DNA from: an uncultured virus (IMG/VR IMGVR_UViG_3300030118_003994)
Taxonomy: Duplodnaviria; Heunggongvirae; Uroviricota; Caudoviricetes; Crassvirales
Length of the DNA: 64,000 nucleotides
Virus record (IMG/VR): IMGVR_UViG_3300030118_003994
Direction: 5' to 3' (one strand)
The position numbers and the translations under genes were made by a program. Each line of letters starts with the position of its first letter. Position 1 is the stretch's first letter. The notes below the pieces were generated by a model. It was not told where the DNA came from, did not search any database, and saw only the letters and a list, made by a program, of their open reading frames with translations. This document shows, in pieces, positions 1,870 through 14,234 of this stretch.

Positions 1870-2280
1870 ATGAAACAAAAACAAATAGACCTAATGACAA
1901 AGCGCAAAATTTTCTTGAAAATGTGGTTCTATATAAGGCACCAACATTTAACAAAAAGCCAAGCACTCAAAAAAGCTTGGGACTTTTACAAAGGCAACGA
2001 CAAAAGCACCGGAATTTTAGAAGTATGGAACGGCAAAAGATTAAAGAATGTAGGCAAACCAAATCAACACCACTACCGAAGAGATGGGCGACTTTATACA
2101 GTAGTAAGGACTAAAATGGGACTAGAGCATAAATTGAGCGAAACATTATACAAGACAATAAACAATAGTAGTTGTAGACTAACAAGCCGTATGAGTAAAA
2201 ACGCCAACCCAACTAGAGATTGGAATCTCACTAGAGATTATGTAACATACCACCGGTCAAAAGAATATGCAGTTTGTTAA
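1870..2280 (+). CDS. First early gene, basic hypothetical protein
   Basis: 136-aa ORF; near-consensus promoter TATACTTG at 1858-1865, 4 nt before ATG. Confidence 0.7.
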   Translation: MKQKQIDLMTKRKIFLKMWFYIRHQHLTKSQALKKAWDFYKGNDKSTGILEVWNGKRLKNVGKPNQHHYRRDGRLYTVVRTKMGLEHKLSETLYKTINNSSCRLTSRMSKNANPTRDWNLTRDYVTYHRSKEYAVC

Positions 2281-2351
2281 TAACTTGTTGATAACTTATA
2301 AAAATACTATGCAAAAAAGTATCACTATCATTTCAAATAGTTGTAATTTTG
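2275..2351 (+). promoter_or_regulatory. Bacteroidota-type promoter (TAATTTTG 2344-2351) with upstream tandem TGTTRATAAC boxes
   Basis: TAnnTTTG -7 consensus; TGTTAATAAC 2275-2284, TGTTGATAAC 2286-2295. Confidence 0.7.
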
Positions 2352-2374
2352 CAAAAGATTTAAAACAATAAAAA

Positions 2375-2536
2375 ATGATTAAATTAACTAAAAAAGAAAA
2401 AGAAATAATTGCTTATATATTATCTTTAGATGTTGAGAATTTTAAAGGAGAAACACAAAAAAATATTATAAACGTTCTAGCTAAATTGCAAGAACAAAAC
2501 ATTTGGGGAGATATACCAAAAAAAGATTTTAACTAA
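2375..2536 (+). CDS. Early hypothetical protein, 53 aa (MIKLTKKEKEIIAY...)
   Basis: Hand-translated ORF directly after promoter. Confidence 0.7.
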   Translation: MIKLTKKEKEIIAYILSLDVENFKGETQKNIINVLAKLQEQNIWGDIPKKDFN

Positions 2537-2543
2537 ATATTAA

Positions 2544-2694
2544 TTAAAAAAGGAGGTGAAACGATGAGAACGAAGTAGATATAAGTCAAGTTTGAACTTT
2601 CTACAATTAAATTGTTGCCCTAAGGATTAAACCGACAAAGATACTTTTAATTGTAATATCAAAAAGTCAGTGTCAAAAAGCTTCCTTTTTTTAA
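2544..2694 (+). ncRNA. Long rod-like structured RNA/attenuator candidate with perfect SD and MRTK mini-ORF
   Basis: AAAAAAGGAGG(2546-2556)/CTTCCTTTTTT(2681-2691); TACAATTAAA(2602-2611)/TTTAATTGTA(2646-2655); TTGTTG/CGACAA. Confidence 0.6.
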
Positions 2695-2720
2695 GTAACT
2701 AAAACAAAAACAATAATATT

Positions 2721-2888
2721 ATGAACCTAAACAGAACAAATCAATTAGAGTTAGAAATCAAAGCACTATCAAATATTTTAAAAAGAAATGAAGATTCAGA
2801 AATTTTAAGTGCAAATGATGAAGTAATAATAAAAAACTTACTCGAAGAAATAAAAACTGAATATAGAATAAACTTAATGCAAGACTAA
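2721..2888 (+). CDS. Early hypothetical protein, 55 aa
   Basis: Hand-translated ORF after TAACTAAAAC leader. Confidence 0.7.
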   Translation: MNLNRTNQLELEIKALSNILKRNEDSEILSANDEVIIKNLLEEIKTEYRINLMQD

Positions 2889-2906
2889 AACTTAAACAAT
2901 AATACT

Positions 2907-3110
2907 ATGAAAGATTTAACCAAAAAAGATTTAAAATTAATTATCAATACATATCAAAATTATATGAATAATTTTATATATGACTTTCAATCTTTTAATT
3001 TAACCGATAAAGATATAAACAACATATATTTAGAGATAGCTAAACAAGATTTACAAGCTACATTTTATGGTAAATTAGATGATGAAATGACAATAATATC
3101 TAAAAGATAA
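2907..3110 (+). CDS. Early hypothetical protein
   Basis: ORF with shared leader motif. Confidence 0.7.
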   Translation: MKDLTKKDLKLIINTYQNYMNNFIYDFQSFNLTDKDINNIYLEIAKQDLQATFYGKLDDEMTIISKR

Positions 3111-3248
3111 GTTATACTGATGAGCATTCAATATGCGAAACAATAAGATAAGAAAAGCCAATGTATTAGGTTGCTAAACGTACCACCGTAATGAAAAAAG
3201 CGTAAAAATCCTATGTAACAACTAAAGTGTTATCTTATTGTCTATAAC
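3111..3248 (+). ncRNA. Hammerhead ribozyme, type I, with large stem III insert
   Basis: Stem I GTTATA(3111-3116)/TATAAC(3243-3248); core CTGATGA(3117-3123); stem II GCAT/ATGC; GAAA(3137-3140); stem III CAATAAGATAA(3141-3151)/TTATCTTATTG(3230-3240); GTC cleavage triplet 3240-3242. Confidence 0.9.
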
Positions 3249-3267
3249 AACTAAAACAAATTATATT

Positions 3268-3435
3268 ATGTATGAAAAAGAGAATGCAATTATGATTGCA
3301 ATATTAAACGGTAATGATACTATAAAGATTGACGATACAATTATCAACTTACCAACACCGCAAAAATCCGGTACTATCAGACAACAAGAAACGTATGCAA
3401 GATTAAAAGCAAAAGAACTATTAAATAATATATAA
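3268..3435 (+). CDS. Early hypothetical protein (true start probably ATG 3268)
   Basis: ATG follows CAACTAAAACAAATTATATT leader just 3' of the ribozyme. Confidence 0.7.
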   Translation: MYEKENAIMIAILNGNDTIKIDDTIINLPTPQKSGTIRQQETYARLKAKELLNNI

Positions 3436-3513
3436 TTATGCAAAAAGAAACTGATAAATTAATTTGGATAAGTACATCTCAAATCGGGACAACTTACACA
3501 GAAACAAGATAAT

Positions 3514-3726
3514 ATGAATACATTTGATAAATACAAAAAGAATTTAGAATATGATAATAAATATATATATTCTTTTGGGACTGCGGTTGCGCACTATGAT
3601 AATAATTTTGTTTATCCTATTGATTGGGAAATAGAATACAAAGGCGAAAAACTATCATCGTCTCCAACGACTAGCAAGCATATCAATTATGCTACTAACG
3701 AACTAAATTTAACATTAAACAAATAA
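3514..3726 (+). CDS. Early hypothetical protein
   Basis: YSFGTAVA...SPTTSKHIN motif seen in small phage early proteins. Confidence 0.7.
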   Translation: MNTFDKYKKNLEYDNKYIYSFGTAVAHYDNNFVYPIDWEIEYKGEKLSSSPTTSKHINYATNELNLTLNK

Positions 3727-3728
3727 TT

Positions 3729-3947
3729 ATGACAAAAATGGAATTAATACTAAAAGTAGCAGAAAGATTGGCTCACAAAGAAAATATAGCTACATCATAT
3801 AATGAAATAGCAGAAATTGTATTAACTTATGATGAGGGCTGGAAGTATGAGGGAGAAGAAATGATTGAGTTAATAGACGAAATATTATCTGTTAAAAAAA
3901 ATATAATTAAAAGTTTAAATTCAACACAAAAAGATTTATCATTTTAA
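3729..3947 (+). CDS. Early hypothetical protein
   Basis: ORF in array. Confidence 0.65.
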   Translation: MTKMELILKVAERLAHKENIATSYNEIAEIVLTYDEGWKYEGEEMIELIDEILSVKKNIIKSLNSTQKDLSF

Positions 3948-4112
3948 TAACTAAAAACAAATAACTATGACAAGAAAAATGAATAAATTAGAACAATACT
4001 GCTTTGATTTAGCAGTAGAAATAATAGGAAGTGATTTAGACAATGTAAATAGAGTGGCTGATATATTGTATAGAGAATTTGAAGATAAAATAATAACTAA
4101 AAACAAATAACT

Positions 4113-4337
4113 ATGAAAACAAAAGTAAATGAAGATAATAGAGTAGATTACATCTGTGATTATGAAATGGGAATGTTAAACGAAATAGACACCATACACC
4201 TGTTTGCCAACCTAATTGAAACAGGAATGGCTTGGAGTTTACAGGGGCATTATGGAAGAACGGCTAACGCCTTAATACAAAACGATTTGATAGACAACAA
4301 AGGAAATATTAATCTAATAAACTATTACGAAATATGA
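4113..4337 (+). CDS. Conserved small phage protein
   Basis: LIETGMAWSLQGHYGRTA motif common in phage early genes. Confidence 0.75.
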   Translation: MKTKVNEDNRVDYICDYEMGMLNEIDTIHLFANLIETGMAWSLQGHYGRTANALIQNDLIDNKGNINLINYYEI

Positions 4338-4477
4338 AAAAATTAATTGAAAAACACTTAGCAGAAATAATAGTATTGTCTGTAATTTTACTAGCGTGTT
4401 CAAGTTGTGGCACTACAAGTCCACACCACGCTCCAGGTATAACTGAGTGGAACAAGCAATACCAAAGATGTAGATAA
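4334..4477 (+). CDS. Small lipoprotein, 47 aa
   Basis: MKKLIEKHLAEIIVLSVILLACSSCGTTSPHHAPGITEWNKQYQRCR: basic N-terminus, hydrophobic core, lipobox Cys; ATGA overlap with upstream stop. Confidence 0.65.
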   Translation: MKKLIEKHLAEIIVLSVILLACSSCGTTSPHHAPGITEWNKQYQRCR

Positions 4478-4492
4478 CTAAAAAAAAAAATT

Positions 4493-4753
4493 ATGAAAAA
4501 GAAAGATTTATTACAAGACTGGGAGATTGTTCAACAAGAATACTATGAGCATCTTAATCGTTCAGAATTAGAGGAAAAATATTCTGATTGGTTTTATAAT
4601 GATGTAGATGTATGGGAATACTGCAAAGATATGGATAAAAGTGAAATGATTGACGAACTTATTCAAGATGAATTAAGATACCGAGCAGATGATACTATTG
4701 AAGAACTTAAAGAAACAATAGCATACATTGAGAAACTAAATTTTAATAACTAA
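4493..4753 (+). CDS. Acidic early protein
   Basis: Strongly D/E-rich 86-aa ORF. Confidence 0.7.
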   Translation: MKKKDLLQDWEIVQQEYYEHLNRSELEEKYSDWFYNDVDVWEYCKDMDKSEMIDELIQDELRYRADDTIEELKETIAYIEKLNFNN

Positions 4754-4935
4754 AAACAAATAGCTATGAAAACAATAATAAAAAGGTATTTAAAACAATT
4801 TGGATACGACCCTACTCTTGCTGAATTACAAGATTTATATACAAGAGGATTAATGAGGTTATCTGACAAAGAAGAAAACGCATTAATAAATGCTATTGAA
4901 AAAAATAATAAAACAACAACTAAAAACAAATAACT

Positions 4936-5286
4936 ATGGACAGACAAAAATATTTTGAATTACTAAAAGACGAGCATAATATTGAAATTGAAGTGCTTGA
5001 ATCATACAAAAACAAACATATTGATTGGACTTTTGATACATACGAAAGTTCTGATGGACAACAAGTATATGTTATAATAGAGGGCGGTCAAATTAACCCC
5101 GATTGGTATGATGGAGTTTATATTGATGAGCATCAATATGCAGAAAGAGTTATGGAAATAATAAAACATTTGAATGATGGAGATACTATACAATGGTATA
5201 TAGATGACATAGATGAGCATATAGATTGGGAAGAATTAGCAGAAGAACTAGATGAGTATGAAAAAGAAATAGCCGGATTAAATTAA
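4936..5286 (+). CDS. Highly acidic early protein (DNA-mimic candidate)
   Basis: About 33 D/E vs about 8 K/R in 116 aa by hand count. Confidence 0.7.
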   Translation: MDRQKYFELLKDEHNIEIEVLESYKNKHIDWTFDTYESSDGQQVYVIIEGGQINPDWYDGVYIDEHQYAERVMEIIKHLNDGDTIQWYIDDIDEHIDWEELAEELDEYEKEIAGLN

Positions 5287-5291
5287 ATAAT

Positions 5292-5489
5292 ATGAATATG
5301 AATAAATTAAATATAGATGAAGTTTTGTATCTAAAAATGATACTTAACTCAAATGTAGAAGAGATAGATGTGTGGGATAAAGAAGAGCAAAATACGAGGT
5401 ATGCAAACATGATTAGAGAATTATATAATAAAATAGTAAGAATACAAAACGAATTAAATAACTATGAAAAACTTAGGACAAAAAATTGA
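5292..5489 (+). CDS. Early hypothetical protein
   Basis: ORF in array. Confidence 0.6.
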   Translation: MNMNKLNIDEVLYLKMILNSNVEEIDVWDKEEQNTRYANMIRELYNKIVRIQNELNNYEKLRTKN

Positions 5490-5655
5490 GCGTGTAGATA
5501 ACGCTACTGATGATATAATGGATGAGATTGGCAATTATTTTTGGACAAAACATGATATAGATATTTGCGAATTTTACCCCAATCATGACGACAAAATAAG
5601 TATGAGTGATAAAATTTACTCAATAATACACAACAAACTAAAAGAAATAATATAA
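5464..5655 (+). CDS. Early hypothetical protein
   Basis: ORF in array, AATAACTATG leader. Confidence 0.65.
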   Translation: MKNLGQKIERVDNATDDIMDEIGNYFWTKHDIDICEFYPNHDDKISMSDKIYSIIHNKLKEII

Positions 5656-5657
5656 CT

Positions 5658-5849
5658 ATGGGAAAACAAAACGATACGCTTATAAAAAATATTGAAAACT
5701 ACGAAAAGTCTACACAAAAACTAGACAGAAACACTATCATCATTACGGCACTAGCTAATTATTATGATTACAACGATTTATCTCAAGAAGAGGGTAGAGA
5801 AGTAGTAAAAATAATTATGGACTTACAAAAAAATAACCGACATGAATAA
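5658..5849 (+). CDS. Early hypothetical protein
   Basis: ORF in array. Confidence 0.6.
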   Translation: MGKQNDTLIKNIENYEKSTQKLDRNTIIITALANYYDYNDLSQEEGREVVKIIMDLQKNNRHE

Positions 5850-6090
5850 TCTAATTAACAACTCATACGAAGATACAATAAAAGATTTGAGATTAAAATG
5901 CAAATACCTAGAGTCAGAAAATGAATGGCTTGATGAACTAGCTAACTACGAAAGGGACTCAAACAGATATGAAAAGTGTGAAGAAGATGAAGCATGGAGC
6001 GAAAAGATTGATAAATTATATCTAAAATCCGTAAAATTAAGAAGAGAGTATAACGAGTTTCAAAAAGAATTATTAACTAAAACTAAATAA
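5842..6090 (+). CDS. Early coiled-coil hypothetical protein
   Basis: ORF in array. Confidence 0.6.
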   Translation: MNNLINNSYEDTIKDLRLKCKYLESENEWLDELANYERDSNRYEKCEEDEAWSEKIDKLYLKSVKLRREYNEFQKELLTKTK

Positions 6091-6092
6091 CT

Positions 6093-6281
6093 ATGGAAAC
6101 AACAAACATGATGAAAATGTTCCTCGCACTAGGAGGACTACAAGCAAAAACTATGGAAGAAAAAGTAAAGTACAAAGAGAGAATTGTATTTGCTACTCCT
6201 GGAATTATTAAACCTAACAACTGGGAAGAACTTTCAATGGAAGAAAAACTTAGAAGATTAAATAAATTAGAAACTATATAA
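6093..6281 (+). CDS. Early hypothetical protein
   Basis: ORF with leader motif; GIIKPNNWEELSMEEKLRRL. Confidence 0.65.
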   Translation: METTNMMKMFLALGGLQAKTMEEKVKYKERIVFATPGIIKPNNWEELSMEEKLRRLNKLETI

Positions 6282-6285
6282 ATAT

Positions 6286-6366
6286 AGAAAGGGGGTTAAA
6301 TATCATATTATTAATTATTAACAGAGCGGTTATACTTTGTAATTAGATATAACACTCCCCCTTTCT
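6286..6366 (+). ncRNA. Intergenic structured RNA / long-loop terminator candidate
   Basis: AGAAAGGGGG(6286-6295)/CCCCCTTTCT(6357-6366) followed by T-run; inner ACAGAG-CGGTTATA-CTTTGT hairpin. Confidence 0.55.
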
Positions 6367-6390
6367 TTTTTTAACTAAAACAATAATACT

Positions 6391-6612
6391 ATGAATAAAA
6401 GAAAAGAAAAAATAGCAGAACTGCTATCGACTGCGCAAGATTATGTAGTAGGAACAAGACTAGATGATTTATATTTTGACTTTTGTTACTACCATATTAC
6501 CGGACTATATGAAAATTTAGATGATGAAGATTTAGATACTATTGAAAAAAGTGCGAAATCAATTATTAAAATGGCTAAATTAGATAAAGAAATAAAAAGT
6601 ATATTATATTAA
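6391..6612 (+). CDS. Early hypothetical protein
   Basis: ORF with leader motif. Confidence 0.65.
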   Translation: MNKRKEKIAELLSTAQDYVVGTRLDDLYFDFCYYHITGLYENLDDEDLDTIEKSAKSIIKMAKLDKEIKSILY

Positions 6613-6627
6613 CTAAAACAAATAATT

Positions 6628-6906
6628 ATGAAAGTAAAAATTATGCAAAGAAGTGTATATCACAAATACGCTGAGATAGAGGTAGAAGTACCTGATTTAA
6701 TTATTGATGGAGAAAATGAAGCATCTTGTGATGTACATACTTGGTTAATCGATAACGAGCAAGATTGGGTAGACATATTAGATACAAAAATAAATATATC
6801 TGAATTTGTTTTTGGAAATGGTATGGATACATACGATTGGACAGATAAAGATGCGGAGAGTGAATGGATGTATATGACAGAACACGGAATTGGTGGACAC
6901 TTATAA
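6628..6906 (+). CDS. Acidic early protein
   Basis: ORF with leader motif. Confidence 0.65.
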   Translation: MKVKIMQRSVYHKYAEIEVEVPDLIIDGENEASCDVHTWLIDNEQDWVDILDTKINISEFVFGNGMDTYDWTDKDAESEWMYMTEHGIGGHL

Positions 6907-6917
6907 AATAAATAACT

Positions 6918-7109
6918 ATGAATTACGATAAATGGAAACTAAGTACACCGGAAGACTATGGCTCTGACTATGTGTCGAACTGTTGCGGTGCAAGAGTAGA
7001 TAATTCAGAACTACGTTGTTCTGATTGTGGCGAGGGCTGTGAAGCTATTGAGGACTACGAATATGAAGCTATAAGAAAAGAAAACTATCTAGAAGATAGA
7101 GATTATTAA
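6918..7109 (+). CDS. Small zinc-ribbon-like protein
   Basis: SNCCGA...CSDCGEGC. Confidence 0.65.
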   Translation: MNYDKWKLSTPEDYGSDYVSNCCGARVDNSELRCSDCGEGCEAIEDYEYEAIRKENYLEDRDY

Positions 7110-7127
7110 CTTAAAACAAATAAAACT

Positions 7128-7313
7128 ATGAAAAATAAACAAGAACTAGTATCATTAACAAACAAAATAGATAACTATTACAAATGGTTTATGACTGATT
7201 GTAGTAGTCCATACGATGAATTAGAATGGTTAATCAAAACACTTTTAGAAAGTAAACATAAAGAAGATATGATGCAAGTTTTAAACGATACTTACGAAGA
7301 CTATAAAAATTAA
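7128..7313 (+). CDS. Early hypothetical protein
   Basis: ORF with leader motif. Confidence 0.6.
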   Translation: MKNKQELVSLTNKIDNYYKWFMTDCSSPYDELEWLIKTLLESKHKEDMMQVLNDTYEDYKN

Positions 7314-7315
7314 TT

Positions 7316-7789
7316 ATGAACATATTTTATCTAGACAAATGTCCTAAAAAATCTGCACAACTACAATACAATAAACATGTAGTTAAGATGATACTTGAGT
7401 CGGCACAAATGTTGTGTACTGCCCACCGGTACTATGGTAATGATAATGTCCCATATAAAACAGCACACCTAAACCATCCGTCTTCTGTATGGTGTAGAGA
7501 AAACTATCATCAATATGTATGGCTTTTTCAACACATGATGCACTTAGGGGATGAATACACTAAAAGATACAACAAGACGCATAAAAGTATAACTAAATGT
7601 TGGGAGTTTTTATGCCACACTCCACCAAACATACCAAAAGGAACGTTTACACAACCACCACAATGTATGCCTGATGAGTATAAAGATAAATGTAGTATCC
7701 AAGCATATTGGAACTACTATATAGCAGAGAAACACTCTGTTGCTAGTAAAGATGAAAAAATATATAAAACTAAACCAAATATTAACTAA
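7316..7789 (+). CDS. Pyrimidine-dimer DNA glycosylase / DenV-like family protein
   Basis: MNIFYLD...KHVVKMILESAQML...YKTAHLNHPSSVW...PQCMPDEYK. Confidence 0.8.
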   Translation: MNIFYLDKCPKKSAQLQYNKHVVKMILESAQMLCTAHRYYGNDNVPYKTAHLNHPSSVWCRENYHQYVWLFQHMMHLGDEYTKRYNKTHKSITKCWEFLCHTPPNIPKGTFTQPPQCMPDEYKDKCSIQAYWNYYIAEKHSVASKDEKIYKTKPNIN

Positions 7790-7802
7790 ATTAAATTAAA
7801 TT

Positions 7803-7988
7803 ATGAAATCAGAAAAAATGTTACACCCCTACATCAACAGTATCAATACTGATGAAACAATTACATATAAAAATGATACTGAATTAGAAAGGTTAAGAGA
7901 AGATAGAAAAAACTTACAATTAGAATTTATTAAATTAAAAGAATTACTTGAACAAATTAAAAAAACAATAGATGAATATAATGGATAA
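7803..7988 (+). CDS. Hypothetical coiled-coil protein
   Basis: ORF in array. Confidence 0.6.
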   Translation: MKSEKMLHPYINSINTDETITYKNDTELERLREDRKNLQLEFIKLKELLEQIKKTIDEYNG

Positions 7989-8101
7989 AATAGAAAAATG
8001 GTGGTCAAACCTATCAGACACACAACAACTAATTGTTATACTAATAGTTTTTGTATGGATATTATGGTCAAGCCCTTTTATAAATTAATAAAATAAATAA
8101 A

Positions 8102-8329
8102 ATGATAATAGATATTAAAGCAACTTATAACCTAACAATACAAGAATTTTTAGATGAGTTTGGATTACACAAAGAATTTGAAAAAACTTTTGGTTGTAAA
8201 CTAAAAGATTGGGATGATGATGTGTACGATGTAGATGTTATAGAAACCCTATTAGAAAAGTATAGGCCTGAAAACAACTATGTTGTACTTATAGATGACA
8301 GCGTATACACTCAAATAATAGAAATATAA
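8102..8329 (+). CDS. Acidic hypothetical protein
   Basis: ORF in array. Confidence 0.6.
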   Translation: MIIDIKATYNLTIQEFLDEFGLHKEFEKTFGCKLKDWDDDVYDVDVIETLLEKYRPENNYVVLIDDSVYTQIIEI

Positions 8330-8457
8330 TGAACGGACATAAATATGAATTTATAATTGATTGTATATTTGTTTACTTGATTCTTTTATTATTAAGTCTA
8401 ATATGAGACTCCAATCAGATAATTATACAAATGTATTACTATAAATAAATAAATAAA

Positions 8458-8832
8458 ATGAATAATAAAAATATTGAATACTTAATGGATACTGTTAACG
8501 AGCTTGTTTTTGGATTACAAGACTCAATAGATAGGCTTGAATTAGCAGACACAATTTGGGATAAAAAAATAGACCCTAAACTAAAAGACGATGATGTTCT
8601 TGAAGAAGTGTTAAATGAAAAAGAACTTGCTGTTTTAAATTGCATGAGAATTAAACAAATACTTGTTACTATATGTTATGCAATAGAAAACCCTCAGGTT
8701 ATACCAGAACTTCAAGAAAACACTATCATGAGTACTATGAGGCACAATATATCTAACAATAAAGCAACAGATGAAACTGTAAATACATTTTTAGACTATA
8801 TGAACTCGGTAAAAAAAGAAAAAAGTTATTAA
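8458..8832 (+). CDS. Hypothetical protein
   Basis: 124-aa ORF, A-rich leader. Confidence 0.65.
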   Translation: MNNKNIEYLMDTVNELVFGLQDSIDRLELADTIWDKKIDPKLKDDDVLEEVLNEKELAVLNCMRIKQILVTICYAIENPQVIPELQENTIMSTMRHNISNNKATDETVNTFLDYMNSVKKEKSY

Positions 8833-8869
8833 CATTTGTAATTTATATAAAAAGTTTGTTGTATATTTG
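8825..8869 (+). promoter_or_regulatory. Promoter TATATTTG (8862-8869) with GTTATTAACA box (8825-8834)
   Basis: Bacteroidota -7 consensus; TTTG at 8835-8838; upstream of recombination/replication operon. Confidence 0.75.
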
Positions 8870-8889
8870 CAAAGAATTTAAACAAAACT

Positions 8890-9069
8890 ATGGAAAACAA
8901 AGAAAAAATTAGTCATGAGTCAAAATTTTGGCTTATGATGTACAAAGAACAACAAAAAAAAGTGGATAGATTACAATATAAAATAGAAAGACTTAAAGAT
9001 AAACTCAAGGAGTGTGGTATCGGTAACGACCACGAGGACTTTTCCCATAGTAAACATTATCTGTCGTAA
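8890..9069 (+). CDS. Small coiled-coil protein, 59 aa (MENKEKISHESKFW...)
   Basis: Hand-translated ORF directly downstream of promoter. Confidence 0.6.
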   Translation: MENKEKISHESKFWLMMYKEQQKKVDRLQYKIERLKDKLKECGIGNDHEDFSHSKHYLS

Positions 9070-9224
9070 TACTTTGTTCCTTGTTACCTCCTTGTAACAC
9101 AACATTCCTGAGCAAGAATGATTATTTAAACTGCTTGTTAGTGTATTTAAAGTCTATGAAAGAAAGGGATGCTGAAACATAAGTATCTTTAAGACAAGGA
9201 ACGTAGTCTCTTTCTGATTAGACA
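9062..9224 (+). ncRNA. Multi-stem structured RNA with probable pseudoknot upstream of recombination genes
   Basis: TGTCGTAAT/ATTAGACA, GTTCCTTGT(9076-9084)/ACAAGGAAC(9194-9202), CATTC/GAATG hairpin whose loop GAGCA can pair TGCTT(9132-9136), GGATGCT/AGTATCT hairpin. Confidence 0.6.
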
Positions 9225-9253
9225 AAAAATTAAATTAAATTAAATTAAATATT

Positions 9254-9841
9254 ATGAGTAAAGAAAACATGAAACTGTGGAATGCAGTAGAAAAAACAAA
9301 TCCAAAGTACACTAAACAAGTAGGCTTTGGTCGTAAATTTACAACAGTTAACGCTCAATATCAAGTAAGATGTGCTACTGAGCAATTTGGACCTCTTGGC
9401 AAGGGTTGGGGTGTTGATAATGAGTTTTTTAATCCTATTATTGAAGGACTTATTGGATACACTGCTAAACTTTGGTGGCAAGATTCTGATGGTAAACATT
9501 CATTTGATATTAACGCATCTATATCTACACATAGTAAATCTGGTAAATTAGATGACGAGTGTTTCAAAAAAGTAACCACAGACGCACTTACAAAAGGTTT
9601 GTCTAAACTAGGTTTCAATGCAGATGTATTTATGGGTCAATATGATGATAACAAGTATGTTGCACAGATGAAGAAAGAGTTTTCTAAAGAAGAAAAAAAG
9701 AAAACAAAAATGACTGCTGACATATTTAATCTTATGATGGAGGCTATTAGTAAAGGAAAGGGTGATAAAGTAAAAGAAAGAATGGGGGACTACACAATGA
9801 CTAAGCCTCAAAAAGACAAACTATTAAAAGCTTTAGCGTAA
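9254..9841 (+). CDS. Rad52/Sak-like single-strand annealing protein
   Basis: FTTVNAQYQ...EQFGPLGKGWG...ECFKKVTTDALTKGLSKLGFNADVF; adjacent to exonuclease. Confidence 0.7.
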   Translation: MSKENMKLWNAVEKTNPKYTKQVGFGRKFTTVNAQYQVRCATEQFGPLGKGWGVDNEFFNPIIEGLIGYTAKLWWQDSDGKHSFDINASISTHSKSGKLDDECFKKVTTDALTKGLSKLGFNADVFMGQYDDNKYVAQMKKEFSKEEKKKTKMTADIFNLMMEAISKGKGDKVKERMGDYTMTKPQKDKLLKALA

Positions 9842-10608
9842 TGATTGATACATTAAAAACAGAATTAATACTATCTGATGATGAAAAGTATTATGCTGAT
9901 AAAGAACATGTGTCTAACAGTATGCTTTCTTTATTAAACAAATCACCTCAACATTTACAAAGATTATTAGATGGGCATCAGGAAGAAACTAATGCCCTAA
10001 TATTTGGAAGTGCTTTTCACACCTATGTATTAGAACCAGAAAAATGGAGTCAAAATGTAGCTGTGTATGAGGGTAAAACCAGAAGAGGCAAGGCTTGGGA
10101 TGAGTTTCAAGAACAAAATAAATCAAAAACTATTATCAATAAATCAGAGTATCAAAAGATTGTTGCCATGCGTAGAGCCTTGTGTACTCCGGCAGACAAT
10201 TACGATTTTATAGAAAACTCTTTACATGAAGTCGTTAGAGTTTGGGAAATGCAAGGCGTAAAGTGTAAAGGAAAGGCTGATTGTGTTTATGAAACTAACA
10301 ATGGTAAAAAAATAATTGTAGATGTTAAGACTACACAAGACGCAAGTCCTGATGGCTTTAGAAGGTCGGCCTACAAGTATGGTTACCATAGACAAGCATC
10401 TTTTTATGTTGATGGCTTTGGTGCTGATGAGTTTTGGTTTGCTGTAGTTGAAAAAGATTCTCCATATAGAGTTGGTTTATATCAAGCTTCGGAGGATTTT
10501 ATAAACAACGGTAGAGATGAGGTTTCGGTATTACTAGAAACATATAAAGAATATTTTATAGATAAAACAAAACAAGTACAAGATTATTATTTTAAAGGAG
10601 AATTATGA
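9841..10608 (+). CDS. RecE/exonuclease VIII-like PD-(D/E)XK nuclease (DUF3799-like)
   Basis: VSNSML, FGSAFHTYVLEP, CKGKAD, IVDVKTT, YGYHRQASFY, VEKDSPY. Confidence 0.85.
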   Translation: MIDTLKTELILSDDEKYYADKEHVSNSMLSLLNKSPQHLQRLLDGHQEETNALIFGSAFHTYVLEPEKWSQNVAVYEGKTRRGKAWDEFQEQNKSKTIINKSEYQKIVAMRRALCTPADNYDFIENSLHEVVRVWEMQGVKCKGKADCVYETNNGKKIIVDVKTTQDASPDGFRRSAYKYGYHRQASFYVDGFGADEFWFAVVEKDSPYRVGLYQASEDFINNGRDEVSVLLETYKEYFIDKTKQVQDYYFKGEL

Positions 10609-11189
10609 CAAAAAGAAAATTAGATTTATACGACATAGTTGTTACTGTTTGTAGTCACTATGGATTAACAGAAAAAGAATTTTTTTCTAAAAGAAGAAAA
10701 AGAAACTATGTAATAGCAAGACATGTGTCTATGTATCTTATGCGTAATCATGGTAAAATAAATTCTTATTTAGGTATTAAAAAATACTTTGAAAGTAACG
10801 GTAGTATTTCTAATCATGCTACAGTTATTTATGCAGTAAGAGAAATGGAAGATGCTATGGATGGTTTTGATAAAAGAAGAAAAAAAGATATAGAAGAAAT
10901 ATCTGAAAAACTTTGTGTATTTAGTAGAAAATATATAGATATTCATTGGTTTATGAAAGTAAACAAGGGAGAAAAAGTGCATTTAAAGTACGGTATAGAC
11001 GGAGAAAAAACTATTATATGGGAACACAAATCTTTAGAAACCAGAGGAAACAGAGTTTATGTTAAAGGAAAGATTAAAAAAGGAGAAGAGTGGATTGATA
11101 GAGATGATATGATGTATGAGGAAAATGGCTTCATATGTGCAGGTGATGGTCATAAAGTGTTTTCTACAGGAAGTCAAGTTTTAATATAA
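10605..11189 (+). CDS. Protein with N-terminal DnaA domain IV-like (Bac_DnaA_C) helix-turn-helix
   Basis: VCSHYGLTEKEFFSKRRKRNYVIARHVSMYLMR...NHATVIYAV matches the DnaA C-terminal R..r.iv.aR..amYL...DHtTV pattern. Confidence 0.75.
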   Translation: MTKRKLDLYDIVVTVCSHYGLTEKEFFSKRRKRNYVIARHVSMYLMRNHGKINSYLGIKKYFESNGSISNHATVIYAVREMEDAMDGFDKRRKKDIEEISEKLCVFSRKYIDIHWFMKVNKGEKVHLKYGIDGEKTIIWEHKSLETRGNRVYVKGKIKKGEEWIDRDDMMYEENGFICAGDGHKVFSTGSQVLI

Positions 11190-11485
11190 TGAATTTAAAA
11201 TATTTAAGAAAAGAACTTAGGTCAATGTCTAAATCTTTAGACATAAAGTATAGTTACGTTTATATACTTTTATACGCATATCATAGCGAAACCTTTAGCA
11301 ATAACGAGGTTGTTGCTGAAGTTCCTTTTGGTTGCGAAACTATAAGTAGAGGTATAAGAAGATTAAGCACCTTAGGATTGATAAATAAAGTTCATGGGGG
11401 TGGAGGTAAAAATAAGCTAAAAGCATTATATTCTATATCCGGAAAAGGAAAACTAGAAGTTAAAAGATTATATATAAAATTATAG
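11189..11485 (+). CDS. Winged helix-turn-helix (MarR-like) protein
   Basis: ETISRGIRRLSTLGLINK...YSISGKGK. Confidence 0.65.
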   Translation: MNLKYLRKELRSMSKSLDIKYSYVYILLYAYHSETFSNNEVVAEVPFGCETISRGIRRLSTLGLINKVHGGGGKNKLKALYSISGKGKLEVKRLYIKL

Positions 11486-11532
11486 GGGAAGCCGAAAACC
11501 TTTTAGAGTAGGTAAATTTAAATTTTTTTACA

Positions 11533-11817
11533 ATGAGTAGTATAATTAATCTGAGTATCAATTTAGATAAAATTGATAAAACAAAAATCATTACAGGTAA
11601 AAAGGGTAAATACCTTAATTTAACTGTAGGTTCTAACAGAGATGGTGAAGACCAGTTTGGAAACACGCATTACATTTTTCAGTCTCAATCAAAAGAAGAA
11701 AGAGAAGGTGGTTCTGAAAAAAACTATTTAGGTAATGGTAAAGAATTTGTTTTTGACAATCAGCCAAAAGCTAAAGCTGAAACTGTTACTAATGATGACG
11801 ATGATTTACCTTTTTAA
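11533..11817 (+). CDS. Single-stranded DNA-binding protein-like
   Basis: INLDKIDK...GKKGKYLNL...DQFGN...YLGNG; acidic DDDDLPF tail. Confidence 0.7.
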   Translation: MSSIINLSINLDKIDKTKIITGKKGKYLNLTVGSNRDGEDQFGNTHYIFQSQSKEEREGGSEKNYLGNGKEFVFDNQPKAKAETVTNDDDDLPF

Positions 11818-12483
11818 ATGAACACTGAACAGATGGCTAAGACAAAATCTTACTGGTTTTCACATGACACAGACGCATGGAGTGATATTAATATAGAACT
11901 TATGATGTCTGTATATGGTGCTGAGGGTTATGGGTTCTATTGGATTATAGTAGAAACATTATCAATGCAGGACAATTATAAATTACCAGTTAAAAATAAA
12001 GGATATTTAGCTGTTCTGTCTAGAAGAATGCAAACTACTCCAGAAAAACTTTCTGAGTTTATAGAGGATTGCATTGAATCATTTAATTTATTTGTTTCTG
12101 ATGACTCATTCTTTTGGTCAGATAGTTTGATTAAAAGATTGGGTATCAGAGATAATGTAAAAAAGTCAAGAACAGATGCTGTTATGAAAAGGTGGGGTAA
12201 TTTAGAAAGGTTTGATGAGTTTTGGAATGCTTATGATAAAAAAACAGCAAAAACTAAATGTGAGGCTCTATGGAAAAAAATGTCTAAAGATAAAAAAGAA
12301 AAAGCTATAAACTATATAAGTCAATATAAAAAATCACAGCCTGATAAAAGATACAGAAAAAATCCTGACACATATTTAAGAAACGAATCTTGGAATGATG
12401 AGATAATTAATAACACAAACGGTCAATCACTATCATACGACAATATTAGTAAGGCCGACTTTGACAAAGCATTTAAGGAATGA
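11818..12483 (+). CDS. Replication initiator-like protein (DUF4373/Lin1244-like N-terminus)
   Basis: YWFSHD...YGAEGYGFYWIIVETL; C-terminal FDEFWNAYDKK...KNPDTYLRNESWNDE; precedes helicase. Confidence 0.75.
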   Translation: MNTEQMAKTKSYWFSHDTDAWSDINIELMMSVYGAEGYGFYWIIVETLSMQDNYKLPVKNKGYLAVLSRRMQTTPEKLSEFIEDCIESFNLFVSDDSFFWSDSLIKRLGIRDNVKKSRTDAVMKRWGNLERFDEFWNAYDKKTAKTKCEALWKKMSKDKKEKAINYISQYKKSQPDKRYRKNPDTYLRNESWNDEIINNTNGQSLSYDNISKADFDKAFKE

Positions 12484-14234
12484 TACAAAAACACCAACTA
12501 AATGATTATGGAATTACTTACAAGGGTTCTTGGAAAGAAGAAATAAAAACAACATGCCCTAAATGTTCTCATCAAAGAAAAAAGAAAAAAGAACAATGTT
12601 TAGCAATCAATACTAAAACAGGTCTTTACACTTGTCATCATTGTGGTTGGTCTGGAGTCATAAGAGAAAAAAGAATGAATGAAAAACAATATATAAAGCC
12701 AAAGTGGGTAAACGGAACTAAACTACCCGAATCAATGGTAAAGTATTTTGAAAAAAGAAAGATACCTCAAGATGTTTTAATTAGAAATAAAGTTACAAGC
12801 AAAAAAGAATATATGCCTCAAGTACAAAAAAACAGAGGCGTAATATGTTTTAATTATTTTAGAGAAGGAGAGTTAATAAACATAAAGTACAGAGATGGTG
12901 ATAAAAACTTTAAACAAGTCGCTGGAGCAGAAAAAATATTTTATGGTTTAGATGATATAAAAGAAACCAATACATGTATTATTGTAGAGGGTGAAATGGA
13001 CAAATTATCTTTTGACACTATAGGTAAAACAGAAACAGTTAGTGTTCCTGATGGTGCTCCAAATCCTAATGCAAAAAATGTAGACGGTAAGTTTTCTTAC
13101 ATAGATAATTGTCACAGTTATTTTGAGAATATGGATGCTATATTTATCGCTGTTGATAATGATGTAAACGGAAGAAGACTTAGAGAAGAATTAGCTAGAA
13201 GACTTGGTAAGGAAAGGGTTTTGATTATAGATTTTCCAGAAGGATGCAAAGACGCTAACGATGTTTTGGTTATACATGGAAAAGAAAAACTTATAGAGTG
13301 TTATGAAAATGCTAGAGATTATCCTGTTGAAGGAGTATTTTCTGTATCTGATGTTGAGGGTTTAATGATAGACTCTTTTCATAATGGAAAAATAAAAGGT
13401 CTATCTACTGGATACCCAACCTTAGACCCTCATTATACGTTTAGAATGGCAGAGTTTGATGTTTTTACAGGCATTCCTGGTCACGGTAAAACATCATTTT
13501 GTTTTCAATTAATGATGAATGGTTCTATTTTATATGGGTGGAAGTGGGGTTTGTTTTCTCCTGAAAATTATCCTATAACAGAACTTTACGAAACTTTAGT
13601 AGAGATGTATATAGGTAAAACTTCAGACATAGAATCAAGTCAAAGAATGAGTATGACAGAGTATTCTGTAGGCATGAAGTTTGTAAATAAACACTTTTTT
13701 GTTGTTTACCCAGAAGATAGTTTTAGTTTAAAAAATGTATTAGATAAATTTAAACACCTGGTCCTAAGAAAAGGTATAAAAGGGGTGTTGGTTGACCCAT
13801 TCAATCAGCTAGACCATGACTTGAAAGGATTGACCGAAGCCTTACATGTAGCAAAAACTTTAAATGAAATAAGAAGATTTACCAAAAACTATCATCTTAA
13901 ATTTATTGTTGTTGCTCATCCTATTACCATGAGAAGTGACAAAGGTATAGGGGATAACGAGGTTCCTACTGCTTATAGAATTGCAGGTGGTAGCAACTGG
14001 TTTAATAAAGCAGATAATATTATTACTGTCCACAGACCAAACCCAAAAGACTTTAGAGACACAACAGTAGATATACATGTTCAAAAAATAAAATTTCAAA
14101 AACTTGTTGGTGTTCCTACAGGTACTCCTGTAAAACTAAATTATCACAGGCCTTCAAATAGGTTTAAGATTTTTGGAGGAGATTATCCTTTGGAGTATTT
14201 AATTAATATAACAGACAATTTAATACCTTACTAA
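12480..14234 (+). CDS. DNA primase-helicase (T7 gp4/Twinkle-like)
   Basis: Zn finger CPKC...CHHC, TOPRIM EGEMD and DND..G, KDAND, Walker A GIPGHGKT, VDPFN, VAHP. Confidence 0.92.
   Translation: MIQKHQLNDYGITYKGSWKEEIKTTCPKCSHQRKKKKEQCLAINTKTGLYTCHHCGWSGVIREKRMNEKQYIKPKWVNGTKLPESMVKYFEKRKIPQDVLIRNKVTSKKEYMPQVQKNRGVICFNYFREGELINIKYRDGDKNFKQVAGAEKIFYGLDDIKETNTCIIVEGEMDKLSFDTIGKTETVSVPDGAPNPNAKNVDGKFSYIDNCHSYFENMDAIFIAVDNDVNGRRLREELARRLGKERVLIIDFPEGCKDANDVLVIHGKEKLIECYENARDYPVEGVFSVSDVEGLMIDSFHNGKIKGLSTGYPTLDPHYTFRMAEFDVFTGIPGHGKTSFCFQLMMNGSILYGWKWGLFSPENYPITELYETLVEMYIGKTSDIESSQRMSMTEYSVGMKFVNKHFFVVYPEDSFSLKNVLDKFKHLVLRKGIKGVLVDPFNQLDHDLKGLTEALHVAKTLNEIRRFTKNYHLKFIVVAHPITMRSDKGIGDNEVPTAYRIAGGSNWFNKADNIITVHRPNPKDFRDTTVDIHVQKIKFQKLVGVPTGTPVKLNYHRPSNRFKIFGGDYPLEYLINITDNLIPY

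What the first reader, a model, noticed from the sequence alone, without database searches (positions are those of the whole stretch)
9062..9224. Multi-domain leader RNA with pseudoknot and exposed anti-SD loop before the recombination operon
Seen: outer stems TGTCGTAAT/ATTAGACA and GTTCCTTGT/ACAAGGAAC; hairpin TGTTAC-CTCCTT-GTAACA presents ACCTCCTT (9086-9093), the 16S anti-SD core and exact complement of AAGGAGGT at 2550-2557; CATTC-CTGAGCAA-GAATG loop can pair with TGCTT to give an H-type pseudoknot; CCTTGT occurs twice so either copy can pair with ACAAGG (two-state fold). Inference: riboswitch-like element or trans-acting anti-SD mimic linked to the 2544-2694 element.
Basis: partly seen in the sequence, partly recalled or inferred. 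Interest (0 to 1): 0.7.

Follow-up and report, generated by a model that had tools for sequence, protein, structure and literature searches.

The report
Modular phage leader RNA, c4-2-like core

Summary
As one fold it is no better than chance (z -1.38). The two long-range stems and the "exposed anti-SD hairpin" are not kept in relatives (71% and 52% of cells paired, matched by 240 and 122 of 500 shuffles).

Nine related marine phage contigs show a conserved modular leader at 9005-9253:
- M1 (9005-9095) is a three-helix RNA with a GNRA hairpin. 10 of its 20 pairs covary. CTCCTT is the 3' strand of its closing helix, paired with AAGGAG at 9007-9012. M1 is a divergent relative of Rfam c4-2 (c4 antisense clan). 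The window scores only 15.4 bits against a threshold of 41; relative L050 scores 40.2 and L107 48.5.
- M3 (9152-9223) is an optional stem-loop.
- (UUAAA)n runs up to the AUG of a Rad52-like annealing-protein gene.

A riboswitch role, an anti-SD mimic role and a link to position 2550 are not supported.

I judge it a new variant of a known kind. The scan has noted c4-like phage RNAs on other DNA, none on this genome.

The parts
8865..8872 (+). Bacteroidetes-type -7 promoter box (TAnnTTTG) of the operon, about 20 nt before the first ATG.
   Evidence: Read. It sits at the same relative place, 19-24 nt before the first ATG, in 7 of 7 homologues examined. The consensus itself is recalled, not tested.
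8890..9069 (+). Small ORF (59 aa, coiled-coil-like), the first cistron. Its 3' end runs through M1 in this genome only by accident of frame.
   Evidence: ORF list. In 6 of 9 homologues the frame through M1 has no start codon upstream of M1, so M1 is not conserved as coding sequence.
9005..9095 (+). Module M1, a divergent c4-2-type RNA folded as a three-helix junction. P1 is 9005-9013 with 9087-9095 (core AAGGAG/CTCCTT). P2 is 9014-9033 (4 bp, UA bulge, 3 bp, GUAA tetraloop). P3 is 9035-9038 with 9078-9081.
   Evidence: On 9 sequences 96.1% of 180 cells pair and 10 of 20 pairs change on both sides; 0 of 500 shuffles reach this and slid controls give 33-58%. Rfam c4-2 scores: window 15.4 bits, L050 40.2, L107 48.5, threshold 41. 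My own model R1 finds L102 (38.8 bits) and L107 (27 bits).
9039..9077 (+). Expanded, variable P3 loop of M1 (39 nt here, 24-42 nt in relatives). It is the candidate antisense segment.
   Evidence: Alignments A3 and A4. Complementarity to start regions was tested.
9103..9136 (+). Module M2, an H-type pseudoknot. S1 is 9103-9107 with 9116-9120. S2 is 9110-9114 with 9132-9136. An A/U-rich 11-nt loop lies between them.
   Evidence: S1 and S2 pair in 100% of cells in 7 of 7 sequences. One S2 pair is GU in 4, GC in 2 and AU in 1; another is CG in 6 and UG in 1. M2 is absent in L001 and L050.
9152..9223 (+). Module M3, an optional stem-loop. The basal stem is 9152-9156 with 9219-9223. An internal loop follows, then a long upper stem starting at 9158 with 9214.
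   Evidence: MFE z-scores are -3.65 (window), -4.13 (L055), -2.92 (L053) and -1.64 (L051), all with the same architecture. The basal stem reads GTCTA/TAGAC, ATCTA/TAGAT or CCTA/TAGG. In contigs of runs X5, X7 and X20 only 35 letters stand in place of window 9136-9258, while run X2 keeps the full stretch.
9227..9250 (+). (AAATT)4.8, which is (UUAAA)n in the RNA. It is an unstructured A/U tract ending 3 nt before the start codon.
   Evidence: TRF reports period 5, 4.8 copies and 100% matches. The tract is present in all 10 close relatives (9 distinct leaders plus L057), counting L057's imperfect tract. A 17-nt stretch (9228-9244) is identical to the T4 gene 32 leader at -29 to -13.
9254..9841 (+). 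Gene for a Rad52-like single-strand annealing protein (195 aa).
   Evidence: phrog_7838, E 5.8e-41. AlphaFold model with pLDDT 69.3. Foldseek matches human RAD52 chains at E 4.6e-5 to 9e-4 and Mgm101 at 8e-3, with TM only 0.33-0.43.
9841..10608 (+). PD-(D/E)XK exonuclease gene, the partner of the annealing protein.
   Evidence: Pfam DUF3799, E 1.1e-29. phrog_412 'exonuclease VIII', E 5.1e-60.
8887..8897 (+). Candidate cis target: the start region of the first cistron, complementary to P3 loop 9041-9051.
   Evidence: Inverted repeat I3, 11 nt, 91% complementary. Loop-versus-start-region duplex: p 0.022 here, 0.016 in L050, 0.056 in L001, 0.11 in L051 and 0.79 in L056. The test was chosen post hoc.
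5655..5666 (+). Candidate trans target: the start region of ORF 5658-5849, a perfect 12-nt complement of P3 loop 9040-9051.
   Evidence: It is the best of 121 start regions at -17.1 kcal/mol, but shuffled loops reach this in 10.7% of trials. A 12-mer match somewhere in the window has P 0.25-0.38.

Best explanation
The interval is the middle and 3' part of a roughly 250-nt conserved, modular leader (9005-9253). The leader belongs to the mRNA that starts at a Bacteroidetes-type promoter near 8865. That mRNA encodes a small protein, a Rad52-like annealing protein, a PD-(D/E)XK exonuclease and replication proteins of an uncultured marine phage.

**What is shown**
- The first module, M1, is a divergent member of the c4-2 RNA family, in the clan of the P1/P7 c4 antisense RNA. 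It is a three-helix junction.
- Its closing helix is AAGGAG/CUCCUU. Its second helix carries a UA bulge and a GNRA tetraloop. Its third helix carries a long variable loop.
- M1 is followed by a small H-type pseudoknot (M2), an optional stem-loop (M3) and an unstructured (UUAAA)n tract that reaches the AUG of the annealing-protein gene.
- The folds, their covariation, the family link and the modularity rest on direct tests.

**What is inferred**
- By analogy with c4, M1 presents its variable P3 loop to translation start regions. Candidates are the first cistron of its own transcript and a few early genes that share the same start motif. Pairing would damp their translation.
- M2 plus the UUAAA tract would set translation of the annealing protein.

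The 'anti-SD' motif is a helix strand, not a ribosome mimic.

My confidence is about 0.85 for the anatomy and family link and about 0.35 for the antisense mechanism. The figure given is for the statement as a whole.
For: **Homologues.** 10 metagenome contigs and 1 viral contig encode the annealing protein at 70-100% identity. All keep a leader.

**M1 fold.**
- 96.1% of 180 cells pair and 10 of 20 pairs have compensatory changes. 0 of 500 shuffles reach this; slid controls give 33-58%.
- The whole-leader model pairs in 96.5% of 260 cells, again 0 of 500.
- G-U pairs are strand-specific.

**Family link.**
- Rfam c4-2 scores 48.5 bits on L107 (threshold 41) and 40.2 on L050, which carries the same leader family as the window. 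That alignment places P1, P2 and P3 as I do.
- A model built only from the 9 leaders finds L102 (38.8 bits, E 2.8e-7) and L107 (27 bits, E 4e-4).

**Not coding.** 6 of 9 homologues have no start codon in the frame through M1.

**RNA library.** A contig from an RNA library (X20) spans small ORF, M1, M2, the UUAAA tract and the gene. This is weak, because DNA can be carried over.

**Loop-to-start-region pairing.**
- p is 0.022, 0.016, 0.11, 0.79 and 0.056 in five lineages, and each best duplex covers the AUG.
- Fisher combination by my own arithmetic gives about 0.003, post hoc.
- The best of 121 start regions in the window is a 12-of-12 match at ORF 5658.
- Four early genes share the start motif.

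**c4 mechanism.** Passages of PMC12197685.
Against: - The window's own M1 scores only 15.4 bits with the Rfam model, and its 3' half is misaligned there.
- The c4-2 family has no experimentally shown function. From Weinberg 2017 I saw only one sentence and could not read the supplement.
- Target prediction is weak. The best-of-121 energy is reached by 10.7% of shuffled loops. 12-mer matches are common.
- The cognate versus non-cognate matrix shows no specificity. L056 shows no pairing (p 0.79).
- Loop-versus-downstream-leader pairing is not significant in any of 9 sequences (p 0.087-0.79).
- No terminator-like site or processing signal was found in the window. Release of a separate small RNA is therefore unproven.
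- In this genome ribosomes translating the small ORF would run through P1, P2 and most of the P3 loop.
Confidence: 0.55

Rival explanations
1. A gp32-type autogenous translational operator. This partly complements the main reading.

The pseudoknot M2 would nucleate the downstream-encoded single-strand annealing protein. The protein would then spread cooperatively over the unstructured (UUAAA)n tract and occlude its own start codon. This is how T4 gp32 acts on gene 32 mRNA.

M1 and M3 would be accessory modules.
For: - The T4 operator is a roughly 28-nt 5' pseudoknot plus an adjacent unstructured segment of more than 40 nt, with UUAAA/UAAA repeats reaching the start site. Both parts are needed for repression (passages of PMC535899).
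- The T4 leader as read here carries the same repeat. A 17-nt stretch at -29 to -13 is identical to window 9228-9244.
- In L049, L054 and contigs of X5, X7 and X20, M3 is missing, so little separates M2 from the UUAAA tract and the AUG; in L049 and L054 a T-run joins them directly.
- L057 (70% protein identity) lacks M1. By my reading it has a different-sequence H-type pseudoknot, an M3-like stem-loop and a UUAAA-like tract.
- The UUAAA tract is kept in all 10 close relatives, imperfect in L057, and is absent from the relatives at 58% identity or less.
- The gene product has a Rad52-like fold that binds single strands.
Against: - The product is not an OB-fold SSB like gp32. No RNA binding has been shown.
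- L001 and L050 have the tract without a pseudoknot.
- In the window itself the pseudoknot and the tract are separated by about 90 nt that include M3.
- A second (AAATT)3 lies before an unrelated 61-aa ORF at 7803. The tract may therefore be a generic start-region enhancer in an SD-less host.
- S2 support is one-sided variation (GU, GC, AU) in only 7 related sequences.
- The L057 pseudoknot was read by eye only.
Confidence: 0.25
2. A riboswitch-like, two-state multi-domain fold is closed by long-range stems. An exposed ACCUCCUU loop mimics the 16S anti-SD and pairs with AAGGAGGU of the 2544-2694 element.
For: - The strings exist.
- The MFE of the isolated interval uses both long-range stems.
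- A 14-nt, 86% complementary inverted repeat sits at 9071-9084 and 9194-9207.
Against: - Fold z is -1.38.
- Long-range stems pair in 71.2% of cells, matched by 240 of 500 shuffles. L056 keeps a near-identical M3 but has a different partner strand.
- The anti-SD hairpin pairs in 52.4% of cells. Its loop is the covarying 3' strand of P1.
- M3, which carries one strand of each long-range stem, is missing in near-identical genomes.
- The 8-mer occurs at chance frequency.
- No Rfam riboswitch matches.
- The start regions of related phages seen show no SD motifs.
Confidence: 0.03
3. Transcription attenuator. P1 of M1, or M2, followed by a U-run terminates most transcripts. This yields a short RNA and limits read-through into the recombination genes.
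For: - The c4-2 consensus ends in U residues.
- L050 has seven T directly after P1, and L107 has six T after its closing helix.
- L049 and L054 have a T-run right after M2.
Against: - The window has no U-run after P1 or M2 and no terminator-like site in 8700-9400.
- A three-way junction is not a canonical terminator hairpin.
- An RNA-library contig runs through into the gene.
Confidence: 0.1
4. A DNA-level element. The hairpins and the AT-rich repeat act in single-stranded or duplex DNA, next to the replication genes. They could be an origin or unwinding element, or a recombination site.
For: - The element lies next to recombination and replication genes.
- The (AAATT)n tract is AT-rich.
- The STAXI precedent, where a DNA role was discussed for structures near c4 RNAs (passage of PMC2864571).
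Against: - GNRA tetraloops and G-U pairs fit only the + strand RNA.
- M1 matches an RNA family model.
- The position is fixed between a promoter and a start codon in all relatives.
Confidence: 0.04

Closest known systems
c4-2 RNA motif (Rfam RF02944; clan CL00128 with the c4 antisense RNA)
   Same: - A three-helix junction with a closing helix P1.
- P2 has 4 bp, a UA bulge, 3 bp and a GNRA tetraloop. P2 is close in sequence to the family consensus.
- A single purine joins P2 to P3. P3 has a variable loop.
- It is phage-borne and lies just upstream of an ORF in replication and recombination modules.
   Different: - The window copy scores 15.4 bits against a threshold of 41.
- The P3 loop is expanded to 24-42 nt.
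- P1 is shorter and lacks the internal loops of the consensus.
- There is no 3' U tail in the window.
- It is embedded in a longer leader with extra modules, and here it is overlapped by an ORF.
c4 antisense RNA of phages P1 and P7 (Rfam RF01695)
   Same: - It belongs to the same Rfam clan.
- It is a leader-embedded small RNA whose loops pair with start regions of genes on the same operon to block translation (mechanism from passages of PMC12197685).
- Here the P3 loop is complementary to the first cistron's start region in several lineages.
   Different: - The RF01695 model gives no match at E <= 10.
- No antirepressor or immunity context was seen in the 11 ORFs annotated between 7316 and 14234.
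- Targets are not established. RNase P processing is unknown.
- The host type is Bacteroidetes-like, without SD-led initiation.
Translational operator of T4 gene 32 (pseudoknot plus UUAAA/UAAA repeats)
   Same: - A small H-type pseudoknot lies upstream of an unstructured tract of UUAAA repeats.
- The tract reaches the AUG of a gene for a protein that binds single-stranded nucleic acid and acts in recombination.
- 17 nt of the tract are identical.
   Different: - The pseudoknot sequence is unrelated.
- The product has a Rad52-like fold, not the fold of gp32.
- M3 is inserted between pseudoknot and tract in this genome.
- There is no SD motif.
- Autoregulation is untested.

Membership tests
c4-2 RNA (RF02944) | Scores at or above the curated gathering threshold (41 bits) with the Rfam covariance model. 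| tested here: not met
   The window scores 15.4 bits, with only P2 aligned correctly. Same-family leader L050 scores 40.2. The unrelated phage contig L107 scores 48.5 and L102 scores 24.2.
c4-2 RNA (RF02944) | A P1/P2/P3 three-helix junction supported by covariation. | tested here: met
   96.1% of cells pair. 10 of 20 pairs have changes on both sides. 0 of 500 shuffles reach this.
c4-2 RNA (RF02944) | P2 hairpin of 4 bp, UA bulge, 3 bp and a GNRA tetraloop. | tested here: met
   P2 pairs in 100% of cells in 9 of 9 sequences. The loop is GTAA or GTGA. The bulge is TA in 8 and CA in 1.
c4-2 RNA (RF02944) | Homology to accepted members, shown independently of the Rfam model. | tested here: met
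   Model R1, built from the 9 leaders only, finds L107 (27 bits, E 4e-4; an Rfam-valid member) and L102 (38.8 bits, E 2.8e-7) among 73 sources. E-values are rough because calibration was short.
c4-2 RNA (RF02944) | A U-rich 3' tail after P1. | tested here: not met
   The window has no U-run after 9095. A tail is present in L050 and L107.
c4 antisense RNA (RF01695, P1/P7) | Match to the C4 covariance model. | tested here: not met
   No C4 row at E <= 10 in 8800-9400 or 8985-9115. Where clan members overlap, only the best match is kept.
c4 antisense RNA (RF01695, P1/P7) | Loops complementary to sites at the ribosome-binding region of a target in the same operon. | tested here: inconclusive
   Against the upstream first-cistron start region, p is 0.022, 0.016, 0.11, 0.79 and 0.056 in five lineages. 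Against the downstream leader nothing is significant in 9 of 9 sequences. The best of 121 start regions has p 0.107.
c4 antisense RNA (RF01695, P1/P7) | Processed out of the leader (RNase P) to a roughly 77-nt RNA that represses translation. | not testable with these tools
   Only contigs of an RNA library were available. They show no ends.
T4 gene 32-type translational operator | An RNA pseudoknot 5' of the start region. | tested here: met
   S1 and S2 of M2 pair in 100% of cells in 7 of 7 sequences. S2 shows GU, GC and AU variation. M2 is absent in L001 and L050.
T4 gene 32-type translational operator | An adjacent unstructured tract with UUAAA/UAAA repeats reaching the start codon. | tested here: met
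   (AAATT)4.8 at 9227-9250. The tract is in all 10 close relatives, imperfect in L057. It is adjacent to M2 in L049 and L054, and nearly so in X5, X7 and X20, but is separated from it by M3 in the window.
T4 gene 32-type translational operator | The regulated gene encodes the cooperative single-strand binding protein that binds the operator. | tested here: inconclusive
   The product has a Rad52-like fold (Foldseek E 4.6e-5, TM 0.33-0.43, model pLDDT 69). Binding to the leader was not tested.
Riboswitch (any known class) | Match to a known aptamer class, or an invariant ligand-binding core kept across distant taxa. | tested here: not met
   No Rfam riboswitch appears at gathering or at E <= 10. 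Modules M2 and M3 are dispensable between near-identical genomes.

The most novel reading that the evidence does not exclude
A Rad52-type single-strand annealing protein of a Bacteroidetes-type marine phage controls its own translation through a gp32-style operator. That operator is a nucleating pseudoknot plus a (UUAAA)n landing tract over an SD-less start site.

The operator is coupled to a c4-2-type antisense RNA in the same leader. The variable loop of that RNA addresses the shared start motif of several early genes.

This would be the first gp32-like operator outside the T4-like phages and outside SSB proteins. It would also be the first functional assignment for the c4-2 family.
Probability: 0.2. 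Interest if true: 0.75.

Novelty: new variant of a known kind. Interest (0 to 1): 0.55.

Why it matters
- It gives the orphan c4-2 RNA family a defined genomic setting: the leader of recombination and replication operons in marine Bacteroidetes-type phages. It also gives testable candidate targets.
- It shows how a plausible single-sequence fold, with an "exposed anti-SD loop", dissolves once relatives are aligned.
- The pseudoknot plus UUAAA-repeat layout in front of an annealing-protein gene suggests something broader. The classical T4 gene 32 autoregulation design may be reused, or reinvented, for other single-strand binding proteins in hosts that do not use Shine-Dalgarno initiation.
- The idea can be tested with a purified protein and a 150-nt RNA.

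Tried and rejected
**Searches that found nothing useful**
- blastn of 8400-10700 against 50,697 phage records: no match.
- Genome-contig scan with the annealing protein: 0 of 55 candidate stretches confirmed.
- No whole genome is held for the window.
- Motif scans of viral contigs:
  - The TTAT..GTCGTAATACTT pattern gave 21 stretches. Only the known L001 contig was related; many of the rest were dihydrofolate-reductase-like coding sequence.
  - The strict M2 pattern gave 0.
  - The loose M2 pattern gave 20 unrelated stretches.
  - The M3 pattern gave 1 unrelated stretch.
- Rfam on 2400-2800: nothing relevant. That element was not found in the L001 record.

**Target tests**
- P3 loop against the downstream leader was not significant in 9 of 9 sequences.
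- A genome-wide duplex scan of the loop gave long, interrupted, uninformative duplexes. Helices of 9 bp or more were no more frequent than for shuffled loops (78 against 119 +/- 36).
- I tried to test covariation of the ORF 5658 start region in a relative. The homologue in the L001 record is cut by the contig end and the other end does not continue it. L051, L053 and L056 records are not held.

**Other**
- The supplement of Weinberg 2017, with the c4-2 text and alignment, could not be read. It may bear on the family's known context.
- One script was killed at its limit and rerun in parts.
- RNA run X20: its contig covers the leader, but contigs cannot show transcription, ends or levels.
Full report
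**Setting.**
- The window looks like an uncultured marine phage. The stretches I listed (1-14234) are densely packed with short ORFs on the + strand. There are no tRNAs. No match was found among deposited phage genomes or bacterial and archaeal genomes.
- Relatives come only from marine viral and metagenome contigs and marine, seawater or estuary sequencing runs.
- Relatives carry TTG...TAnnTTTG promoter-like boxes and start regions without Shine-Dalgarno motifs. From recalled knowledge this is the Bacteroidetes style.
- The finding lies in the 184-nt gap between a 59-aa ORF (8890-9069) and a 195-aa gene (9254-9841).
- That gene matches phrog_7838. Its model (pLDDT 69.3) matches human RAD52 chains (Foldseek E 4.6e-5 to 9e-4, TM only 0.33-0.43) and Mgm101. 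It is a Rad52-like single-strand annealing protein.
- Downstream follow a PD-(D/E)XK exonuclease, a DnaA-C-like HTH protein, a replication initiator and a primase-helicase.
- 'Recombination operon' is therefore a fair description.

**The observation.**
- The isolated interval folds no better than shuffled sequence. Its energy is -33.7 kcal/mol against -28.84 +/- 3.51 (z -1.38); 20 of 200 shuffles fold as well. The minus strand gives z -0.51.
- Rfam at gathering thresholds finds nothing here. Its only hit in the window is DUF805b at 11482-11514.
- At E <= 10 the region gives 5 weak rows. One is c4-2 at 9006-9078 with 15.4 bits.

**Relatives.**
- The annealing protein retrieved 26 viral loci, one at 78% identity (L001) and the rest at 64% or below.
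- It also retrieved 53 metagenome loci, ten at 70-100% (L048-L057; L048 is identical to the window, and L052's leader reads the same as L001's).
- Reading the upstream DNA shows a conserved but modular leader in the close group.
- More distant relatives (58% or less) mostly have only a promoter box and a short A-rich leader.

**Module M1 (9005-9095).**
- A 9-sequence alignment (A3) supports three helices. P1 has the core AAGGAG/CTCCTT. P2 has 4 bp, a UA bulge, 3 bp and a GNRA loop. P3 is AGGN/NCCT around a 24-42-nt loop.
- 96.1% of 180 cells pair. 10 of 20 pairs change on both sides. 0 of 500 column shuffles reach the observed values. Sliding the partners gives 33-58% pairing.
- The shuffle control ignores relatedness. 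However, the compensatory changes are many and of several types. For example the innermost P2 pair is AU in 4, GC in 4 and CG in 1. The last P3 pair is CG in 3, GC in 3, AU in 2 and GU in 1.
- M1 is not conserved as protein. In 6 of 9 homologues the frame through it has no start codon upstream of M1, and the small ORF stops at different places relative to the helices.

**Family of M1.**
- A motif scan for the P2 core in viral contigs found 7 stretches. Two groups had the full three-helix arrangement in unrelated phages: L102-L105 and L107.
- Rfam's c4-2 model (RF02944, clan CL00128 with the c4 antisense RNA) scores 48.5 bits on L107 (threshold 41). It scores 40.2 on L050, a member of the window's own leader group, aligned with P1, P2 and P3 as I draw them. 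It scores 24.2 on L102.
- For the window the model aligns only P2 and loses the 3' half in the long P3 loop, giving 15.4 bits.
- A covariance model built from my 9 leaders finds L102 (38.8 bits, E 2.8e-7) and L107 (27 bits, E 4e-4). It finds only one copy in the window (73 sources, 318,917 bases; the three other window rows have E 0.12-0.71).
- I therefore file M1 as a divergent variant of c4-2, not as a threshold-passing member.
- Weinberg et al. 2017 state that c4-2 is likely a distant homologue of a previously described RNA. I saw one passage. The supplement was unreadable here.
- c4 of P1/P7 blocks translation by pairing its loops with the ribosome-binding region of the ant operon (passages of the review PMC12197685).
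- In L107 and L102 the RNA also sits in replication modules.

**Module M2 (9103-9136).**
- In S2 one pair is GU in 4, GC in 2 and AU in 1. Another is CG in 6 and UG in 1.
- S1 never varies, so it is uninformative.
- The geometry is ordinary for an H-type pseudoknot: 5 bp, a 2-nt loop, 5 bp, a 1-nt loop and an 11-nt loop.
- M2 is missing in L001 and L050.

**Module M3 (9152-9223).**
- M3 is a local stem-loop. Its basal stem covaries (GTCTA/TAGAC, ATCTA/TAGAT, CCTA/TAGG).
- It has a conserved internal loop and a long upper stem. Two unrelated apical sequences occur, the window type and the L051 type.
- MFE z-scores are -3.65, -4.13, -2.92 and -1.64, with the same architecture each time.
Those stems pair in only 71.2% of 73 cells; 240 of 500 shuffles do as well.
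- L056 keeps an almost identical M3 while the supposed partner in M1 differs.
- Contigs laid on the region show natural presence/absence variation. X2 keeps M3. X5, X7 and the RNA-library run X20 have 35 letters in place of window 9136-9258. In X5 the rest is nearly identical, with 2 differences in 296 nt.

**The A/U tract.**
- (AAATT)4.8 at 9227-9250 ends 3 nt before the AUG. It is kept in all 10 close relatives (9 distinct leaders plus L057), counting L057's imperfect tract.
- The only other exact (AAATT)3 in the window is at 7788-7802, directly before ORF 7803.
- The T4 gene 32 operator is described as a 5' pseudoknot plus an unstructured segment with UUAAA/UAAA repeats up to the start site. 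Both parts are required for autogenous repression by gp32 (passages of PMC535899).
- I read the T4 leader. 17 nt at -29 to -13 are identical to window 9228-9244.
- In L049 and L054 a T-run is all that lies between the pseudoknot and the tract. L057 lacks M1. By my reading it has a different-sequence pseudoknot, an M3-like stem-loop (z -1.96) and a UUAAA-like tract.
- This is an architectural analogy. No binding was tested.

**Targets of the P3 loop.**
- Pairing with the downstream leader is not significant in any of 9 sequences (p 0.087-0.79).
- The repeat finder showed that loop 9041-9051 is 91% complementary to 8887-8897, the start region of the first cistron.
- I then tested loop against first-cistron start region in 7 leaders. 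The p values are:
  - 0.022 (window) and 0.032 (L049, same lineage);
  - 0.016 (L050);
  - 0.110 and 0.146 (L051 and L053, one lineage);
  - 0.79 (L056);
  - 0.056 (L001).
- Every best duplex covers the AUG.
- Fisher combination over five lineages, by my arithmetic, gives about 0.003. The test was chosen after seeing the repeat, and the cross matrix shows no cognate preference.
- Within the window the best of 121 start regions is a 12-of-12 match at ORF 5658 (-17.1 kcal/mol). Shuffled loops reach that in 10.7% of trials, and random 12-mer matches are common (P 0.25-0.38).
- Four early genes (4936, 5658, 6093, 8890) share the 7-nt start motif. It occurs 10 times on the + strand against 3.2 expected.
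- These are leads, not findings.

**Other readings.**
- No terminator-like site exists in 8700-9400. Relatives do have U-runs after P1 or M2.
- The AAGGAGGT at 2550 is one of 3 occurrences against 1.7 expected. The 2540-2700 gap folds with z -1.37, has no Rfam match and was not found in the L001 record.
- Earlier notes of this scan describe c4-like antisense RNAs in other phage genomes. None concerns this genome.

**Verdict.**
- The region is a real, conserved, modular leader RNA. Its core is a divergent c4-2-family RNA.
The global fold, the anti-SD mimicry and the link to 2550 are not.
- The mechanism is inferred, not shown. It comprises antisense control of start regions and a possible gp32-like operator.

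Noticed in passing
window 11482-11514 (+); L001 5292-5326: A DUF805b RNA (RF02914) scores above threshold in the window (40.1 bits, threshold 35.6) and at the syntenic place in the relative (45.5 bits). It lies just upstream of a 94-aa ORF (11533-11817, phrog_24909).
   Followed up: no
window 2537-2720: A second 184-nt gene-free gap. A purine-rich 5' strand containing AAGGAGGT pairs with a pyrimidine-rich 3' strand followed by a run of T. This is the same closing-helix-plus-U-tail look as c4-2 RNAs, but there is no Rfam match, the fold z is -1.37, and it was not found in the L001 record.
   Followed up: partly
window 915-1862: About 950 nt without any ORF of 50 aa or more on either strand. The stretch holds a 14-bp (2 G-U) complement to P3 loop 9053-9066 at 1575-1588. 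It could hold promoters, an origin or further RNA genes.
   Followed up: no
window 7788-7802: The only other exact (AAATT)3 in the window. It fills the gap between the stop of a pyrimidine-dimer-glycosylase-like gene (7316-7789) and the ATG of a 61-aa ORF of unknown family (7803-7988).
   Followed up: partly
window 4933, 5655, 6090, 8887: Four early genes share the same 7-nt start motif (positions -3 to +4), preceded by TAA or AAA. The motif occurs 10 times on the + strand against 3.2 expected from base composition.
   Followed up: partly
L010-L012, L074, L075 (about 150 nt before the annealing-protein ATG): A more distant relative group (54% protein identity) carries a different, G+C-richer and apparently structured leader after the same kind of promoter box. 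No Rfam match was found there in L010. Structured leaders may be common for this gene family.
   Followed up: no
L057 about 190-331: A 70%-identity relative lacks the c4-2-like module. By eye it has a different-sequence H-type pseudoknot, then an M3-like stem-loop (z -1.96) and a UUAAA-like tract.
   Followed up: partly
window 9136-9258 in runs X5, X7, X20 versus X2: The M3 stem-loop is a presence/absence polymorphism among otherwise near-identical phage genomes from different studies. The M3-less form is the one seen in the RNA-library contig.
   Followed up: partly
window 6284-6368: Weak hits of my M1 model on both strands (15-18 bits, E 0.12-0.71) fall in the gap between ORFs 6093-6281 and 6391-6612. 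The spot lies next to a 17-nt tandem repeat (6250-6290) and is probably an AT-rich palindrome.
   Followed up: no
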